From contig CAYVBP010000002.1 in the NCBI GenBank assembly GCA_964449155.1, positions 334-64,333 of the forward strand: a DNA stretch of 64,000 nucleotides, read 5' to 3'. Source of the stretch: an uncultured Rhodospirillaceae bacterium (GTDB lineage Bacteria; Pseudomonadota; Alphaproteobacteria; UBA9219). A program made the position numbers. This document shows, piece by piece, positions 54,001 to 60,000 of this stretch. Each line of letters begins with the position of its first letter. The stretch's first letter is position 1.

Positions 54001-57000
54001 GACGGTGGAAGATCGGTCAGCAATGTGTTGGGAAAGCCCGTGTGCGGGCGCAGAAATATGTGACGGCCCTAGGCCGTCGTCGTGCACGTGTGCGTCGTTC
54101 GAATAATGAAGGCGGTAAAGTTTTTCATCGTTTGATGAGAATGACACAAAAGAAATTTGCTTGCAATCCCCTCTTTCTTTCCGCGCTTTTACGGGCCTCA
54201 CAACAGAACCTTGACAAAGAACACGCCCAAGACGATTATGAACGCCTGTTCATAAGTGGGATTGATGGCGTTGAAAGGATCTTGGACATGAGGAAGTCGT
54301 CTTTCAGGCGCGTTCTTGTCTGGACGTGTTTGGCATTTATTTTTTCGGTTGGTGGCGGACAGGCGTCGGAACCACTGGCATCAAACGTTACGAAGCCCTT
54401 GATGAGCGATGTGACTTCTTTCGTCTATTTTACCGGTATTGGCTGTCCCCATTGCGCGAATGTCGATCCTGTTTTGCTGAAACAGAAAATTCGGCAAGGC
54501 AATCTGCTGGTCATCGAATACGAGATTTACCGCGACAACGCGAACGCTCCGCTTTTGATGGCCTATGACAAGCAATTTGATACAGGCCTTGGCGTGCCGA
54601 TGGTTGTAACCGAAGGCAAGAAAGGTGGCGCGGTCGTTGGCGACACACCTATTCTGGAATCGCTGGATTCGCTGATCGCTAAGCACAAAGGCAACGGTGT
54701 CGTTTTGCCCACCGGCGCACAGCTCTTTGTGGCCCTGACCTTAACAGATTTACCGCGTCTGCCTAAAATCTGGTTCAAGAACCGCGCGGCTGTCCGCAAA
54801 GATATGGCGTCAAAGGAAAACGATGCGATCAAGGCATTTGTGGTTGATGGAACGGAGCCGCAAGGTTGCGCGCCTTCTGCCGAAAAAGAGGTCGCCCTAT
54901 CGGACGACAAGGTTGTTTTTGCCAAGGCTTGTGCCTTCAACGGTTGGCTTTTGCTGCGTGATTAAGGGAGGTTGTAGTGGAAGAAGTCTCTTTAGGAAAA
55001 GTTATATCTCTGGCACTTGTTGATGCTGTGAACCCCTGCGAGTTTGCGGTGCTCACGATGCTGCTGGTTTCAATCATCGCCTATAATCCGCACAAGAAAG
55101 CGAACATCATCTGGGCTGGGCTTTCGTTTAGCTTGGCCGTGTTCATCATGTATCTGATCTACGGCTTGTTTATTATTAAGTCCTTCCAACTCGTGCAGGG
55201 GATCACATGGATACGCCCGTTCCTGTATAAGGGGCTTGGCGGCGTTGCGGTCATCTTGGGCGCGCTTCAGATCAAGGATTTCTTCGCCTACAAAGTCGGC
55301 AGTTTTGGCACAGAAATGCCCGTCAGTTGGCGGCCCAAGGTCAAGGCGCTGATCGCAAAAGTTACGTCGCCTGCGGGAGCTTTTGTCGTCGGCCTTTTGG
55401 TCACGCTGTTTCTTCTGCCTTGCACCATCGGCCCCTACATCATCATGGGCGGGTTGTTGTCGGTCATGGACATCATCAAAACTTTGCCGACATTGCTTCT
55501 CTATAACGTGATCTTCATCTCGCCGATGTTGCTGATCACGTTGGTGGTTTATATGGGCCTCAGCCGCGTTGAAGATGTGCAGGATTGGAAGGATAAAAAC
55601 ATCCGTTATCTGCATCTGATCGCAGGGCTGCTGATCCTCGGCCTCGGCGTCGCTATGATCGGGGAATGGATCTAAATCATGCGCCCGCGCAAATGCCGTC
55701 TTGTTCGCTCAAGCCCGATGGCGCGTTTCTTCAAGCCGCGCGGGATCCCTCTGTGCGATCTGGAAGTCGTCAAGCTGAAGGACGAGGAATACGAAGCCCT
55801 GCATCTGTCCGACTATAAAAACATGGAGCAGATCGACGCGGCAAAGTTGATGGGCATCTCGCGCCCGACTTTCTCGCGCATTCTCTCCAGCGCACGCAAG
55901 GCCATCGCCAAGGCCATTATCGAGGGCGGTGCATTGGAAATCGAAGGCGGCGACTTTGAGCGCATTGAACCGCCCACAACATGCAAAGGAAAAAAGAAAT
56001 GAAGATTGCTTTCTCAACAACCGGCACGGATTTATCCGCACCGATGGATCCGCGCTTCGGACGCGCCGCGTTCTTCTTGGTCTATGACACAGAAACAAAA
56101 GCGGTCGAAGCGATCAAAAACGCTTATGCTGACGCAGGCCAAGGCGCGGGCATCAAGGCAGCGGAAACCATCGTCAAAGCCGGAGCCAAAGTTCTGGTGA
56201 CTGGCGATTGCGGCCCGAAGGCATTCAATGCGTTGAAGCAAGCGCACGTCAAAATCTATTCGGCCAAAAATGTTTCTGTGGCCGACGCCTTGGCGGCATT
56301 TGAAGCTGAAAAACTGACGGAAATCACGGCGGCATGAAGATCGCCATCGCATCCGGTAAAGGCGGGACGGGGAAAACGACGCTGGCCATCAATCTGGCTT
56401 TGGCAGCGAAAAGCCCCGTCCATCTGTTGGATTGCGATGTGGAAGCGCCGAACGCGCATTTGTTTTTGCGGGGCGATCTTGTCCGCCAGCGCATTGTGAC
56501 AATCCCTGTGCCTGAGGTCGATGAGGCCAAATGCGATGGCTGCGGCAGGTGCAGCGATTTTTGCGCCTTTAACGCCATCGTCTCTTTCGGAACTGTTCCG
56601 GTGATCTCGCATGAGATGTGCCACGGCTGCGGTGGCTGCATGCGTATCTGCCCGCAAAAGGCCATACATGAAATCGACAAACGGATCGGCGTCGTCGAAA
56701 CCTTTTTGTGCGGCGCGATCACGCTTGTACAAGGCAAACTCGATATTGGCGTTGCGCTAGCTCCACCGCTTATCCGCGCCGTCAAAGAAGAAGCGCAAGG
56801 CGATCTTGTCATCATTGACGCACCGCCCGGAACCTCTTGTCCCGTTATCGCCACGTTGCGCGAGGCTGATTTTGTCGTGTTGGTGACCGAGCCGACGCCC
56901 TTTGGATTGAACGATCTTCGCCTTGCCGTGGACGTGGTGCGCGAACTTGGTTTGCCTTTCGGTGTCGTCATCAATCGCGCCGAAGAGAAAGACGTGCTTG

Positions 57001-60000
57001 TTCGCCCCTATCTTGAAGCCGAGAAGATCGCGCTTCTGGCCACAATCCCCGATGACCGCCGTATTGCCGAGACTTACGCCAAAGGACAGACAATCATCGA
57101 CGCCTTGCCAGAATACGAGGAGCTTTTTTTGAGGTTTCTGCAAAGAATCCGCGAGGCCGCATGAAAGAGATCGTCATCATCAGCGGCAAAGGCGGAACAG
57201 GCAAGACGAGCCTAACAGCCAGCTTCGCGCTCCTCGCGCAAAACGCTGTTCTTGCAGATTGCGACGTGGACGCGGCGGATTTGTATCTAATCCTCACACC
57301 GGACGTTAAAGAACAACACGAATTCTGGAGCGGCGTCGAAGCGATCATTGATCCCGCGCTTTGCACCAACTGCGGCGCGTGTCTGAATCTGTGCCGATTT
57401 GATGCGATCAAGGAAACGAACGGCGCGTTCGCTATCGACCCGACTGCTTGCGAAGGCTGTGGCGTTTGCGCCCGTTTTTGCCCACGAGGTGCCGTTCGGC
57501 TTGAAAAACGCCTGTGCGGTGCATGGATGGTATCGGCTACGCGCGCGGGACCGATGGTTCATGCAAGACTTGGCATCGCTGCGGAAAATTCCGGCAGGCT
57601 GGTTTCGACGGTGCGACAGGAAGCGCGACGCGTGGCTGAAGAAACAAAACGCGACATGATCCTGATCGACGGCCCGCCCGGAATCGGTTGTCCTGTGATA
57701 GCCTCGATCTCCGGCGCGAACGCTGCGCTGATCGTGACCGAGCCAACGCCGAGTGGCGAGCAGGATCTTTTGCGGGCGTTGGAACTGACGCGGCATTTCA
57801 AGGTTCCTGCTTTCATTTGCGTCAACAAATGGGATATTGCGCCCGAAAAAGCCGAGCAGATCGAAAAGCAAGCCTTAGCAAACGGCGCGCTCATCTTGGG
57901 CCGCATTCGCTATGACAAAGGTGTCACGCAAGCGCAAAAACAGGCAAAGGCCGTGATCGAAACCGATACGCCCTCAGCTTCCGACATCAAAGACCTGTGG
58001 AAGCACTTTCAACAACAAATGGAAAAGGAAAAACAACCATGATGATCGCCATCCCCCTCGAAGACGGAAAACTCTGCCCACATTTTGGCCATTGCGCGAA
58101 ATTTGCTCTGATCCAGACAGACGATAAAAACGCCATCACCGCGCGACGCGACATCAATGCCCCGCCGCACGAGCCGGGCCTATTGCCAACTTGGCTTCAT
58201 GAGCGCGGCGTCAACCTCATCCTATGCGGCGGCATGGGGCCGCGCGCGCTCGAATTATTCGCACAAAAAGACATCAAAGTCATTACAGGTGCTCCCGTCG
58301 ATGCACCAGAAGTTCTTGTTGCGGCTCATTTTGCCGGAACTTTGCAAACGGCTCCGAATAGCTGTGATCATTAATTGCTTGAATGTTCATAAGAAACCTA
58401 GAAGATGAGTAAAGGTTTCTGCGGTAGGATCAGAGAGGTTTTACGATGTCTTTTTTGCGCCTTTTAATTCTGCCTGTTTTCTGCGCATTTTGCTGGGGGT
58501 TGCTGCTGCCTCAATCAGTAAACGCGGAGGATCGCCCCGCTATTGTTTCCCAAGAATCTGTGCCGACGATTAACGCTCAGGATTTACAGCGTCTTCTTAA
58601 AAAGAAGAAAGCCGTTTTTCTTTTGGATGTTCGCCAGCCGGAAGAATATGAAACGGGGCACATTCAAGGCGCAAAGCTTATGCCTCTTGGCTCAATCCCT
58701 GATCATTTTAATGAACTGTCCAAGACAAAAAAGATCGTTGTTTATTGTAAGTCAGGGCGGCGAAGCGCTCAGGCGATGTCCCTTTTGCAGGCGAAGGGAT
58801 TTTCCAACGTTGTCAGTCTTTCTGGAGGCTTTCAGGCGTGGTCTTCGTTTCAGGACACAAAGAAAGAAATGCGCGTCTGCGCGCTTTCAACAGGATGCCA
58901 AAACAGATAGGGCTTTTAGTTCTTCTTTCTTAACCCCGCGCTGAAGCTTCCCCTGCAGCCCAAAAGGACTGAGCCAAGACAAATGAGGGCGCAGAGAAGG
59001 ACGACGACCGGCCCTGACGGCGTGTTGGTGTGGAAAGAAAGCAGCAGGCCATCCGCTGGGTTCGCGTCTGCAAACGGTGGTATCGGAACCGCGATGGCCC
59101 ACCCGCTGAAGAAGGGCTTTGGACGCAAGTGAAAGGCGTCTGCGGTATGATAATTGCGTTGATATTATAATCGAGGAATATTGAGCCAGCAAAAGCCGCG
59201 TCCACACTCGATAAAATCATGCCATTGATATGGCGATTTGGCGAAAGCCTTGCCAATAGTGTTTACGTTCGCTGAAAACTTTGCGTACTCAAGCAAATCT
59301 TTCGTTCGTATTTTGGGCTTATCTGATGCCCACGCATCATAAAGCTTGCGAACCAGTGCTGCCTGACGAGGCCCGTTAAAAACGTACTCCTTCGTTCCAA
59401 TTACGAGTTGATCGCCGCTAGGGGAGCAAACAACCTCGACATGGGACGTGGCAGAGCTGAAGTCGCATGGAACAGCGAGCTTGGCATTAATGGCCGCACA
59501 ATCAGCGTGATTTTTACGTCCGCAGTCGGCAAGATCCCTGCGAATGATGTCTTCCATTTGATCATCATCAAGGCTTAAGGGTTTCCTTTTAAAGCTGGTC
59601 GCCCCCAGCTTGATCGCGTGCATGATGCTGTCATGATCTTTAGCTTGCCCACTGACCACGATGATCGGAAGCAAATGGGCGATGGTTTTGTTTTGATGAA
59701 AATGGGGATACTTCTCCCGAACTTTTTCTATGAACGACATGCCCGACTCGACGCGCGCGCTAAGCGCCTTGGTATCCGACTTGATGTGCAGGTCGAGCAG
59801 AATGTAGCAGAAATGTTGACGATCAAGCGCTTCAAGGCCTTCCGCCTTTGTCGCGGCGACAACGGCATCGTGATCCATTGCACGAAGAAGATCGACCATC
59901 TCCGCAGCCATGTCATCATCATCCTCGACGATCAAAGCTATATGGCGTTCGCTCACGTCACGCCTCCGGCTCTTGTTCAAAAGGAAGCACGATAGAAACT

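What the first reader, a model, noticed from the sequence alone, without database searches (positions are those of the whole stretch)
54288..58910. Anaerobe/archaeal-style redox gene cluster in an alphaproteobacterial chromosome
Eight co-directional genes make up this cluster: an exported CxxC thioredoxin-fold protein, a CcdA/DsbD-like membrane protein, a DUF134 HTH protein, a NifX-type FeMo-co-binding domain protein, two MinD/ParA-type P-loop ATPases each with two 4Fe-4S CxxCxxCxxxC motifs, a second NifX-like protein and an exported rhodanese. The last five coding junctions (NifX-like, two MinD-Fd, NifX-like) overlap. The DUF134-NifX-MinD/Fd-MinD/Fd-NifX core is a conserved cassette of unknown function seen mainly in strict anaerobes and methanogens. 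Here it sits between thrS and a probable island, which suggests horizontal acquisition and a role in Fe-S or metal-cofactor or sulfur trafficking.
Basis: partly seen in the sequence, partly recalled or inferred. Interest (0 to 1): 0.6.

Follow-up and report, generated by a model that had tools for sequence, protein, structure and literature searches.

The report
Orange-protein-type metal-cluster operon, alphaproteobacterial variant
The eight genes are real and form an alphaproteobacterial version of the already described 'orange protein' (ORP) iron-sulfur complex of anaerobes, here wired to a membrane thiol-redox pair and to a conserved DNA operator that probably belongs to the small DUF134 regulator, so it is a variant of a known system and not a new kind of system.

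Summary
Eight co-directional genes lie at 54288-58910, with the stated domains and cysteine motifs. Four junctions, not five, overlap by ATGA. The 'cassette of unknown function' is the ORP (orange protein) cluster described in Desulfovibrio vulgaris. NifX1 is homologous to the D. gigas orange protein. The two MinD/ferredoxin ATPases have the Orp3/Orp4 architecture. NifX2 carries the CxHFGHC...CDH motifs of the MrpORP C-terminal domain.

It differs from the Desulfovibrio system. It is a single operon. It has no OrpR or sigma-54 promoter and no Mrp domain.

It has a sigma-70-like promoter overlapped by a perfect palindrome, TTATGAAC-N4-GTTCATAA, that is unique in the window. Similar palindromes recur at a fixed distance before DUF134-led cassettes in several phyla.

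The Trx-like and CcdA-like genes are fused into one protein in archaeal homologues. In 24 of 46 long loci this pair lies near DUF134, NifX or MinD-Fd genes.

Recent horizontal transfer is not supported. Base composition and codon usage match the flanks. The cassette forms one clade in related alphaproteobacterial MAGs and Rhodomicrobium, in varying genomic contexts. Ancient transfer remains plausible.

Verdict: a new variant of a known kind, of moderate interest.

The parts
54211..54239 (+). Sigma-70-like promoter: TTGACA (54211-54216), 17-nt spacer, GATTAT (54234-54239). It lies about 50 nt upstream of the first gene.
   Evidence: Consensus scan gave 10 of 12 matches; sequence read. The same TTGACA-17-nt-(A/G)ATTAT arrangement is seen in the L084 and L089 sequences. 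The number of promoter-like hits in the region is not above chance, so the position and its conservation are the argument.
54236..54255 (.). Candidate operator. A perfect 8-4-8 palindrome, TTATGAAC-GCCT-GTTCATAA, overlapping the -10 hexamer.
   Evidence: The core TGAAC-N4-GTTCA occurs once in the 64-kb window. In 1.65 Mb of related loci, 16 of 34 GAAC-N4-GTTC sites lie within 131 nt upstream of a cassette gene. Of 49 DUF134 upstream regions, 15 score at least 13 of 16, against 0.4% of random 200-nt windows. These sites sit at a fixed 34-47 nt before the DUF134 start. A variant is also present in Rhodomicrobium sp. Az07.
54288..54965 (+). Exported thioredoxin-like protein (225 aa). It has a signal-peptide-like N-terminus and a CPHC motif at C53/C56.
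   Evidence: ORF. CPHC is invariant in 29 homologues. It is 35% identical (BLASTP 2e-20) to the N-terminal domain of archaeal Trx::CcdA-like fusion proteins. It has no Pfam hit of its own.
54977..55675 (+). CcdA/DsbD-like six-helix membrane protein (232 aa), with one Cys in helix 1 (NPC, C21) and one in helix 4 (LPCTIGP, C149).
   Evidence: Both Cys are invariant in 62-89 homologues. The AF2 model is all-helical, pLDDT 71.5. Relatives hit Pfam DsbD_2 (18 of 62) and SfLAP (24 of 62), but the window protein itself hits nothing. Two relatives are named 'cytochrome c biogenesis CcdA family protein' by NCBI.
55679..56002 (+). DUF134 (UPF0251) helix-turn-helix protein (107 aa). Proposed autoregulator that binds the palindrome.
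   Evidence: PF02001 E 4.5e-26, with a weak Sigma70_r4 match at residues 32-76. It is fused to a NifX-type domain in L085 and L021. The operator co-occurs with DUF134 across phyla.
55999..56337 (+). NifX1: orange-protein (ORP/Orp8)-type small Nitro_FeMo-Co-fold protein (112 aa).
   Evidence: PF02579 E 4e-23. It matches PDB 2wfb (D. gigas ORP) at E 2e-18, 1rdu at E 5e-20 and 1eo1 (MTH1175) at E 3e-17. Its start overlaps the DUF134 stop by ATGA.
56334..57164 (+). MinD-Fd1: deviant-Walker-A P-loop ATPase (276 aa) with an inserted 2x[4Fe-4S] ferredoxin domain. Orp3/Orp4-type.
   Evidence: Pfam CbiA/ParA plus Fer4. The Walker A, all eight ferredoxin Cys and C169 are invariant or nearly so, and C34 is 94% conserved, in 99 sequences. 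The AF2 model has pLDDT 93.7, and its best folds are archaeal MinD, ApbC, FleN, Soj, HypB and NifH. It has an amphipathic C-terminus, FLRFLQRIREA.
57161..58042 (+). MinD-Fd2: paralogous ATPase (293 aa), 32% identical to MinD-Fd1, with the same architecture.
   Evidence: Pfam. Paralogy from tblastn. Cys conservation: seven of the eight ferredoxin Cys and C177 are invariant, C71 is 94% and C34 is 82% conserved. It is always adjacent to MinD-Fd1 in related loci.
58039..58374 (+). NifX2: stand-alone Di-Nase domain (111 aa) of the MrpORP C-terminal type. Motifs are CPHFGHC at the start and CDH at the C-terminus.
   Evidence: It matches NCBIfam MrpORP NF041136 only at model positions 258-365, E 2.3e-36. 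H15, H44 and C109 are at least 98% conserved, H18 and C19 are 77% and H111 is 82%. The CxHFGHCE and CDH motifs are described for the [3Fe-4S]-binding domain of MrpORP (PMC6345978).
58446..58910 (+). Exported single-domain rhodanese (154 aa) with a CKSGRRS active-site loop. Accessory, present only in the closest relatives.
   Evidence: PF00581 E 3.5e-25, with NCBIfam GlpE/PspE-type matches. It is absent downstream of the cassette in L002, L003, L082 and L084. It is adjacent in a relative at 90% identity or more, judged from accession numbering.

Best explanation
This is one operon encoding an ORP-type (orange protein complex) metal-sulfur-cluster machine, joined to an envelope thiol-redox module.

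Shown by sequence and comparison:
- NifX1 is a homologue of the D. gigas orange protein.
- MinD-Fd1 and MinD-Fd2 are paralogous SIMIBI-class ATPases of Orp3/Orp4 architecture. Each carries two [4Fe-4S] motifs, plus an invariant Cys seven residues after the Walker B Asp.
- NifX2 is the MrpORP-type Di-Nase domain with its Cys/His motifs.
- The Trx-like and CcdA-like proteins are two halves of what is a single fused protein in archaeal homologues.
- A palindrome overlapping the -10 travels with the cassette across phyla.

Inferred:
1. The two ATPases form an ATP-dependent heterodimer, probably membrane-associated through C-terminal amphipathic helices. Their ferredoxin inserts supply low-potential electrons.
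2. The heterodimer docks the two small NifX-fold proteins, which hold or pass on an Fe-S or Mo/Cu-sulfide cluster, as in the Desulfovibrio ORP complex.
3. DUF134 binds TTATGAAC-N4-GTTCATAA and represses the operon. It is controlled through a NifX-fold partner that senses cluster or metal status. The DUF134::NifX fusions in two lineages support this pairing.
4. The CcdA-like protein passes reducing equivalents from the cytoplasm to the exported CPHC protein. Where the periplasmic rhodanese is present, this arm also handles sulfane sulfur. The envelope thiol/sulfide state is thereby tied to the cytoplasmic cluster machinery.

The cassette has been resident for a long time in an anoxic-habitat alphaproteobacterial lineage. 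It is not a recent island.
For: ORP identity:
- NifX1 matches PDB 2wfb at 2e-18.
- NifX2 matches MrpORP model positions 258-365 at 2e-36, with the published motifs.
- The Orp3/Orp4 description, two ferredoxin motifs and a C-terminal amphipathic helix, comes from PMC6345978. Both features are found here.

Fe-S context in relatives:
- MrpORP-like and NifU_N genes lie in L021.
- An IscA-like gene is next to the cassette in Rhodomicrobium.

ATPase fold: AF2 pLDDT 93.7, with best matches MinD, ApbC, HypB and NifH.

Operon structure: four ATGA overlaps and short gaps.

Operator.

DUF134::NifX fusions.

Trx::CcdA fusions and adjacency:
- Fusion proteins are shown.
- Trx-like precedes or is fused to CcdA-like in 43 of 46 loci of at least 6 kb.
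- 24 of those 46 loci have a DUF134, NifX or MinD-Fd gene nearby.
- Examples are L085, L086 and L087.

Long residence:
- Composition and codon usage match the flanks.
- The alphaproteobacterial cassettes form one clade.
- The seven-gene unit is conserved in GCA_009929575.1 and GCA_028692635.1.
Against: - No experiment exists for this cassette.
- The physiological role of the Desulfovibrio ORP complex itself is unresolved. A cell-division role has been proposed (PMC8359166).
- DvH protein sequences could not be fetched, so orthology to Orp3/4/5/7 rests on architecture and on the ORP and MrpORP models.
- The Mrp ATPase domain, OrpR and sigma-54 promoters are absent here.
- The window's CcdA-like and Trx-like proteins hit no Pfam model.
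- The CcdA-like model found no PDB fold or sequence match.
- DUF134 binding to the palindrome is inferred from co-occurrence only. Many DUF134 loci, including all the archaeal-type ones, lack the motif.
- Only 4 of the 80 related genome loci found with MinD-Fd1 (plus the window's own contig copy, L001) have the Trx/CcdA pair nearby. The pair is therefore dispensable for the core.
- The rhodanese is not conserved.
Confidence: 0.6

Rival explanations
1. Two unrelated modules lie side by side. The Trx-like/CcdA-like pair and the rhodanese would be an ordinary envelope disulfide-reduction or cytochrome c maturation system, with no functional tie to the ORP-type core.
For: Only the closest alphaproteobacterial cassettes carry the pair: 4 of the 80 related MinD loci. 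L004, L006, L007 and Rhodomicrobium lack it. CcdA/Trx pairs are generic envelope reductant shuttles (established knowledge).
Against: There is only a 3-nt gap between CcdA-like and DUF134, with no promoter-like site in between. The single promoter/operator sits upstream of Trx in the alpha clade, but directly upstream of DUF134 where the pair is absent. This particular Trx/CcdA-like family lies near DUF134, NifX or MinD-Fd genes in 24 of 46 long loci, including archaeal ones with different gene orders. No ccm or res genes are nearby.
Confidence: 0.2
2. The two MinD-like ATPases are primarily a cell-division or positioning system of anaerobes, as proposed for the Desulfovibrio ORP complex. The small metalloproteins would act only as redox inputs.
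For: The fold is closest to archaeal MinD. Both proteins have amphipathic C-terminal helices. Morphology defects and polar localisation are reported for DvH orp and MrpORP (PMC6345978, PMC8359166).
Against: No minC or minE-like partners are present. There is an invariant ferredoxin insert, plus a switch-II Cys of the kind found in metallochaperone and NifH-type SIMIBI ATPases. The cassette is repeatedly linked with Fe-S scaffold and carrier genes: NifU_N, MrpORP and IscA-like. The DvH division role is described by its own authors as a hypothesis.
Confidence: 0.15
3. The cassette is a recently acquired genomic island from an anaerobe or archaeon, inserted next to thrS and tRNA-Thr.
For: A tRNA-Thr and an IS transposase lie 2.4-3.8 kb upstream. 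Downstream genes look accessory: an ABC ATPase with weak defence-system matches and an HTH_17 protein. The flanks of the cassette differ among relatives. The CcdA-like protein is about 60% identical to archaeal proteins.
Against: Composition and codon usage are indistinguishable from the rest of the window. The housekeeping thrS lies between the tRNA and the cassette. The cassette proteins form one alphaproteobacterial clade at 72-94% identity, with the next relatives at 63% or less.
Confidence: 0.1
4. The genes are accessory factors for nitrogenase FeMo-cofactor biosynthesis: NifX/NafY-like carriers plus a NifH-like ATPase.
For: Two proteins carry the Pfam Nitro_FeMo-Co domain, and there are weak Fer4_NifH and NifH fold matches.
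Against: No nif genes occur in the 64-kb window or in the related loci whose gene calls or ORFs were examined. NifX1 groups with ORP, TM1290 and MTH1175, and NifX2 with the MrpORP domain. The cassette is widespread in MAGs from many phyla and in DPANN-type archaeal loci.
Confidence: 0.03

Closest known systems
ORP (orange protein) complex and orp gene cluster of Desulfovibrio vulgaris Hildenborough (Orp3, Orp4, Orp5, Orp8, Orp9/MrpORP; regulator OrpR). Sources: Fievet 2011; Pardoux 2019, PMC6345978; Fievet 2021, PMC8359166.
   Same: It has an orange-protein homologue (NifX1). It has two paralogous MinD-like ATPases, each with two [4Fe-4S] ferredoxin motifs and a C-terminal amphipathic helix. 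It has a Di-Nase domain with the CxHFGHC...CDH motifs. Related cassettes come mostly from MAGs of anaerobe-associated phyla and anoxic reactors or sediments.
   Different: It is a single co-directional operon, not two divergent ones. It has no OrpR enhancer-binding protein and no sigma-54 promoter. Instead it has a sigma-70-like promoter with a palindromic operator and a DUF134 gene. The Di-Nase domain stands alone, without the Mrp/NBP35 ATPase domain. An upstream Trx-like/CcdA-like pair and a downstream exported rhodanese are added. The host is alphaproteobacterial.
CcdA/DsbD membrane thiol-disulfide electron transporters with Trx-fold periplasmic partners (for example CcdA-ResA/CcmG, DsbD, ScsB).
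   Same: It has six transmembrane helices, with one essential-looking Cys preceded by Pro in helix 1 and one in helix 4. It has an exported CxxC partner encoded next to it, fused to it in archaeal homologues. Relatives match Pfam DsbD_2.
   Different: The window protein matches no Pfam DsbD model. SfLAP, a family annotated as a sulfolipid-addressing protein, scores better than DsbD_2 in relatives. The partner has a DsbA-like CPHC motif and an extra 90-aa C-terminal region. There is no cytochrome c maturation context. The family is linked instead to DUF134/NifX/MinD-Fd genes and, in archaeal loci, to ZIP transporters.
SIMIBI-class metallocluster ATPases (NifH/BchL, Mrp/Nbp35/ApbC, CooC, HypB).
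   Same: It has a deviant Walker A and a MinD/NifH fold. It has an invariant Cys seven residues after the Walker B Asp, the position of NifH Cys132. That numbering is from my own knowledge of NifH. It partners with NifX-fold cluster carriers.
   Different: It carries an inserted two-cluster ferredoxin domain between strands of the ATPase core. It lacks the Mrp CxxC motif and the NifH Cys97 equivalent. No structure of this subfamily has been solved.

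Membership tests
ORP complex / orp cluster (D. vulgaris type) | An orange protein (Orp8) homologue: a small Nitro_FeMo-Co-fold protein related to D. gigas ORP. | tested here: met
   Window 55999-56337 matches PDB 2wfb_A (ORP) at E 2e-18 and PF02579 at E 4e-23.
ORP complex / orp cluster (D. vulgaris type) | Two paralogous MinD-like P-loop ATPases, each with two [4Fe-4S] ferredoxin motifs (Orp3/Orp4). 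| tested here: met
   The domains are present and seven of the eight Cys are invariant in each paralogue set (MinD2 C71 is 94%). The paralogues are 32% identical.
ORP complex / orp cluster (D. vulgaris type) | MrpORP (Orp9): an Mrp/NBP35 P-loop domain with CxxC, fused to a Di-Nase domain. | tested here: not met
   Only the Di-Nase part is present. NF041136 is matched at positions 258-365 with 125.8 bits, against a cutoff of 450. There is no Mrp-type gene in the operon. Fused MrpORP-like genes do exist in other loci, such as L021.
ORP complex / orp cluster (D. vulgaris type) | Sigma-54 promoters and the cognate enhancer-binding protein OrpR, in two divergent operons. | tested here: not met
   No EBP gene is in or next to the cluster. 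No -24/-12 match lies in the 53923-54287 intergenic region. All genes are co-directional.
ORP complex / orp cluster (D. vulgaris type) | The proteins form a physical complex and are expressed only at low redox potential. | not testable with these tools
   This needs anoxic co-purification and expression data.
ORP complex / orp cluster (D. vulgaris type) | Orp5 small [2Fe-2S] protein and Orp7. | not tested
   No reference sequences could be retrieved. That Orp7 is a DUF134 protein is only my recollection.
CcdA/DsbD thiol-disulfide transporter | Six TM helices as two repeats, with one conserved Cys in helix 1 and one in helix 4. | tested here: met
   NPC (C21) and LPCTxGP (C149) are invariant in 62 homologues and at least 99% conserved in 89. 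The AF2 model is helical.
CcdA/DsbD thiol-disulfide transporter | A match to the family's sequence models (Pfam DsbD or DsbD_2). | tested here: inconclusive
   The window protein has no hit at E up to 10. Among 62 family members, 18 hit DsbD_2 (best 5e-7) and 24 hit SfLAP (best 1e-11).
CcdA/DsbD thiol-disulfide transporter | Fold similarity to solved CcdA or DsbD structures. | tested here: inconclusive
CcdA/DsbD thiol-disulfide transporter | A cognate extracytoplasmic Trx-fold CxxC partner. | tested here: met
   The adjacent exported CPHC protein is present. It is fused in archaeal homologues. It is adjacent or fused in 43 of 46 long loci.
Rhodanese (single-domain sulfurtransferase, PspE/GlpE type) | A rhodanese domain with an active-site Cys loop. 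| tested here: met
   PF00581 E 3.5e-25. The CKSGRRS loop is visible in the sequence.
NifX/NafY nitrogenase cofactor carriers | Encoded with nif genes in a diazotroph. | tested here: not met
   No nif genes occur in the window or in the related loci whose gene calls were examined. The rest of the genome was not available.
DUF134 / UPF0251 | A match to PF02001 above the gathering score. | tested here: met
   91.7 bits against a cutoff of 27.

The most novel reading that the evidence does not exclude
DUF134 is a previously uncharacterised family of metal-sulfur-cluster-responsive repressors. Its operator is TTATGA(A/G)C-N4-G(T/C)TCATAA. Its sensor is a NifX-fold protein, either separate or fused. 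The unannotated Trx/CcdA-like pair is an integral extracytoplasmic arm of ORP-type systems and is conserved from DPANN archaea to Alphaproteobacteria. The 'orange protein complex' would then be the cytoplasmic half of a redox-gated metal-sulfide handling pathway that spans the membrane.
Probability: 0.3. Interest if true: 0.6.

Novelty: new variant of a known kind. Interest (0 to 1): 0.42.

Why it matters
The ORP complex has been called anaerobe-specific. Its biochemistry is described but its physiological role is not. It has been studied only in Desulfovibrio, where it is controlled by OrpR and sigma-54.

This variant gives three testable handles.

1. It offers a simple candidate regulatory circuit: DUF134 plus a 20-bp operator found in several phyla. 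That would give a function to a widespread domain of unknown function.

2. It shows a recurrent genomic link, supported by gene fusions, between ORP-type genes and a divergent CcdA/Trx pair. This points to envelope thiol or sulfide chemistry as part of the system's role.

3. The same core occurs in a cultured alphaproteobacterium, Rhodomicrobium sp. Az07, in which genetic tests could be attempted.

The finding does not overturn anything. It extends a known system.

Tried and rejected
- The first protein search timed out and was repeated.
- Fievet 2011 (PMC3133258) is not held. The definition of the orp cluster was therefore taken from later papers by the same group.
- Sigma-54 promoter search: there were 82 two-mismatch matches in the window against about 72 expected. 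None lies in the operon's upstream region.
- Permissive Pfam scan of the Trx-like and CcdA-like proteins found nothing.
- Alignment A3, the window Trx against fused archaeal proteins, misaligned the C-terminal region. It was not used for modelling.
- Literature searches for DUF134, UPF0251 and the COG numbers gave no relevant study.
- I considered whether thrS is functionally tied to the cassette. It is adjacent in the window and in L089, but elsewhere in L168 and L169 and without the operator there. I treat it as a neighbour, not a part.
- I considered the palindrome as a LexA (Cheo-type GAAC-N4-GTTC) box. I rejected this because it travels with the cassette through phyla that have different LexA motifs. 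The LexA motifs are from my own knowledge.
- PADLOC on the downstream genes gave only weak, generic ABC-ATPase matches.
The distance between C34 and C169 in the MinD-Fd1 model could not be measured.

Full report
**1. The observation**

The region 54288-58910 holds eight co-directional ORFs on the + strand.

Pfam and NCBIfam recognise six of them:
- DUF134, 55679-56002.
- Two Nitro_FeMo-Co proteins, 55999-56337 and 58039-58374.
- Two CbiA/ParA-type ATPases with two Fer4 motifs each, 56334-57164 and 57161-58042.
- A rhodanese, 58446-58910.

The first two proteins get no family hit, even at E 10.
- One has a signal-like N-terminus and a CPHC motif.
- The other is a six-helix membrane protein with NPC and LPCTIGP motifs.

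The junctions are as follows:
- Four are 4-nt ATGA overlaps: DUF134/NifX1, NifX1/MinD1, MinD1/MinD2 and MinD2/NifX2.
- CcdA-like/DUF134 are separated by 3 nt.
- Trx-like/CcdA-like are separated by 11 nt containing GGGAGG.
- The rhodanese follows after 71 nt.

The conserved residues are as follows:
- In 98-99 homologues, all eight ferredoxin cysteines of MinD-Fd1 are invariant, and seven of the eight in MinD-Fd2 (C71 is 94%).
- The Walker A SGKGGTGKT is conserved in both.
- Two further cysteines are conserved: C34 (94% in MinD-Fd1, 82% in MinD-Fd2) and the invariant C169 or C177.

**2. What the core is**

NifX1 matches the crystal structure sequence of the Desulfovibrio gigas orange protein (2wfb, E 2e-18). 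It also matches the related TM1290 and MTH1175 proteins.

NifX2 matches the NCBIfam model for MrpORP, but only over its C-terminal domain (positions 258-365, E 2e-36). NifX2 begins with CPHFGHC and ends with CDH. These are the two motifs that Pardoux et al. describe for the [3Fe-4S]-binding Di-Nase domain of MrpORP (PMC6345978).

The same paper describes Orp3 and Orp4 as two similar proteins, each with two [4Fe-4S] ferredoxin motifs and a MinD-like C-terminal amphipathic helix. The two window ATPases have both features.

The AF2 model of MinD-Fd1 is confident (pLDDT 93.7). It is most similar to archaeal MinD, ApbC, FleN, Soj, HypB and NifH. No member of this ferredoxin-insert subfamily, and no DUF134 protein, has a solved structure.

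It is known from D. vulgaris as a multi-metalloprotein complex that is expressed only at low redox potential. Its physiological role is still debated (PMC8359166).

**3. How it differs from the Desulfovibrio system**

The Desulfovibrio genes form two divergent sigma-54 operons controlled by the Fe-S-containing enhancer-binding protein OrpR. Here all genes form one operon:
- No EBP is nearby.
- No -24/-12 element lies upstream.
- The Mrp/NBP35 ATPase half of MrpORP is missing.

Instead there is a sigma-70-like promoter, TTGACA-17-GATTAT, at 54211-54239.

**4. A conserved operator**

A perfect palindrome, TTATGAAC-GCCT-GTTCATAA (54236-54255), overlaps the -10 hexamer. Its core occurs once in the 64-kb window.

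The same element, with the same promoter geometry, precedes the first gene of the cassette in related loci. This holds whatever their flanks are.

Where the Trx/CcdA pair is absent, the element lies 34-47 nt before the DUF134 start codon. This is seen in:
- an Alphaproteobacteria MAG;
- Planctomycetales and Bacteriovoracaceae;
- Thermoanaerobaculia and other Acidobacteriota;
- Thiococcus pfennigii;
- Rhodomicrobium sp. Az07, in a GAG/CTC variant.

Of 49 DUF134 upstream regions, 15 score at least 13 of 16. Only 0.4% of random 200-nt windows from the same loci do so.

The motif moves with the cassette through phyla. The most economical reading is that the regulator encoded in the cassette, DUF134, binds it and autoregulates. 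This is an inference; no binding was tested.

DUF134 is fused to a NifX-fold domain in two separate lineages, L085 and the Desulfonema limicola MAG L021. This suggests that a NifX-fold protein is its sensory partner.

**5. The Trx-like/CcdA-like pair**

The membrane protein belongs to a family of at least 1,252 sequences. Some members match Pfam DsbD_2 or SfLAP, although the window protein itself does not. Both cysteines are invariant.

At about 60% identity there are many 370-406-aa proteins, three of them named by their sources as Woesearchaeota, Nanoarchaeota and Euryarchaeota SM23-78. In these, a signal peptide and a VYFTGIGCPHCA domain are fused to the membrane domain. That domain is 35% identical to the window's Trx-like protein. 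The fusion shows that the two window genes act together. They resemble a minimal DsbD-like shuttle with an extracytoplasmic CxxC domain.

A scan of metagenome contigs with the family profile gave 80 loci, which I analysed together with L085-L087:
- The Trx-like part precedes or is fused to the membrane part in 43 of the 46 loci of at least 6 kb.
- In 24 of those 46, a DUF134, NifX or MinD-Fd gene lies within the flank.
- Individual archaeal contexts show different gene orders, often with ZIP transporters.

The converse does not hold. Only 4 of the 80 related loci found with MinD-Fd1 carry the pair. The pair is therefore an accessory module that repeatedly associates with ORP-type genes. It is not a core component.

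The fold could not be confirmed against solved CcdA.

**6. Origin**

The window is ordinary chromosome. It holds dnaA, secA, der, bamB, aroA, grpE, trpBA, thrC and thrS.

Proteins at least 90% identical to the window's are labelled 'Alphaproteobacteria bacterium' in NCBI MAGs. I could not verify the placement independently.

The cassette's GC, GC3 and codon usage are unremarkable.

MinD-Fd1 has relatives at 72-94% identity in MAGs labelled Alphaproteobacteria or Rhodomicrobiaceae. One short contig is labelled Bdellovibrionales, which is probably a binning error. The next relatives are at 63% or less and come from many other phyla.

In a neighbour-joining tree of MinD-Fd1+2, without support values, the alphaproteobacterial cassettes form one clade.

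The seven-gene unit from Trx to NifX2 is intact in GCA_009929575.1 and GCA_028692635.1, but with different flanks. The rhodanese and thrS are neighbours only in the closest relatives.

This pattern fits an old acquisition followed by descent and local rearrangement within an anoxic-habitat alphaproteobacterial lineage. It does not fit a recent island.

**7. Mechanism proposed**

I propose the following. Each step is inferred unless stated otherwise.

1. The two ATPases form an ATP-dependent heterodimer whose ferredoxin inserts carry low-potential electrons.
2. The invariant Cys seven residues after the Walker B Asp occupies the position of NifH Cys132. That numbering is from my own knowledge. 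It may contribute to an inter-subunit metal site.
3. NifX1 (ORP-type) and NifX2 (MrpORP Di-Nase-type) hold or relay a metal-sulfur cluster.
4. DUF134 represses the operon at the palindrome in response to the state of a NifX-fold partner.
5. The CcdA-like/CPHC pair exports reducing power. With the rhodanese where present, it manages envelope thiol or sulfane-sulfur chemistry.

The link to Fe-S biogenesis is strengthened by neighbouring genes in relatives:
- NifU_N and MrpORP-like genes in L021.
- An IscA-like gene and iron-uptake genes next to the Rhodomicrobium cassette.

The alternative readings are scored in the rivals section: independent modules, a cell-division system, a recent island, and nitrogenase accessory genes.

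**8. Verdict**

The finding is real and was correctly described at the domain level. The horizontal-transfer reading is not supported as a recent event.

What is new is the variant architecture, the candidate DUF134 operator and the recurrent Trx/CcdA-like association. Interest is moderate.

Noticed in passing
window 52138-53922 (- strand); L089 5428-7245; L168, L169: The adjacent thrS encodes a 594-aa ThrRS without a TGS domain. Beyond the alpha-MAG clade (76-99% identity), its closest named relatives are Chloroflexota at 62-64%, not Alphaproteobacteria. In L089 the cassette's promoter and palindrome sit about 26 nt before a co-directional thrS, which is followed by Trx-CcdA-DUF134 and the rest. 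In other relatives thrS lies elsewhere and has no palindrome.
   Followed up: partly
window 50531-51706 and 51797-51871: An IS-type transposase (DDE_Tnp_1 plus DDE_Tnp_1_assoc) lies directly upstream of a tRNA-Thr(GGU) gene, between trpA and thrS.
   Followed up: no
window 12905-17145 and 25137-32911: dnaA is followed by Dot/Icm-type type IVb secretion genes (DotH/IcmK, a TrbI/DotG-like gene). Further on there is a type IVb-pilus-like cluster: TcpQ, secretin, PilO-type, T2SSE and T2SSF. This hints at a host-associated or predatory lifestyle for this MAG.
   Followed up: no
window 59165-63011 (- strand) and L001 11313-12513: A response regulator, a histidine kinase and a 641-aa ABC/SMC-like ATPase lie downstream. 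The ATPase has only weak, partial matches to defence ATPases (Ppl, mad3, AriA, LmuB). It is followed by an HTH_17 (excisionase-like) gene. An accessory island is plausible but not demonstrated.
   Followed up: partly
L085 6713-7354; L021 170-934: Natural DUF134::Nitro_FeMo-Co fusion proteins (213 and 254 aa) occur in two unrelated lineages.
   Followed up: yes
L021 1484-4904: In the Desulfonema limicola MAG the cassette neighbourhood also holds a fused MrpORP-like gene, a metallo-beta-lactamase-fold gene, a CGGC-domain gene and a NifU_N scaffold-like gene.
   Followed up: partly
L086 2231-4659; L087 6741-7484: In the archaeal-type loci L086 and L087, the Trx::CcdA-like gene is flanked by ZIP metal transporters, with a TRASH-domain gene in L086. 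In the alphaproteobacterial relative L084, an ArsR-ArsP_1-CDF-Thioredoxin_3-DGC-NifX group lies downstream of the cassette.
   Followed up: no
window 56433-56435 and 56838-56840 (MinD-Fd1 C34, C169); 57260-57262 and 57689-57691 (MinD-Fd2 C34, C177): Besides the eight ferredoxin cysteines, each ATPase has two further conserved cysteines. One lies in a D-C-D motif after strand 2. The other lies in a PPGxxCP motif seven residues after the Walker B Asp. Their role is unexplained. They may form an inter-subunit metal site.
   Followed up: partly
window 5822-7219, 7203-8588, 46705-48321 (all - strand): Three large ORFs (465, 461 and 538 aa) have no Pfam match at the thresholds used, 1e-8 for the first two and 1e-5 for the third.
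   Followed up: no
L170 5288-9062 (Rhodomicrobium sp. Az07, GCA_018619475.1): A cultured alphaproteobacterium carries DUF134-DUF5320-NifX-MinD-MinD-NifX. It lies next to a divergent IscA-like gene and a FecIR/TonB-receptor iron-uptake group. It has no Trx/CcdA pair.
   Followed up: partly
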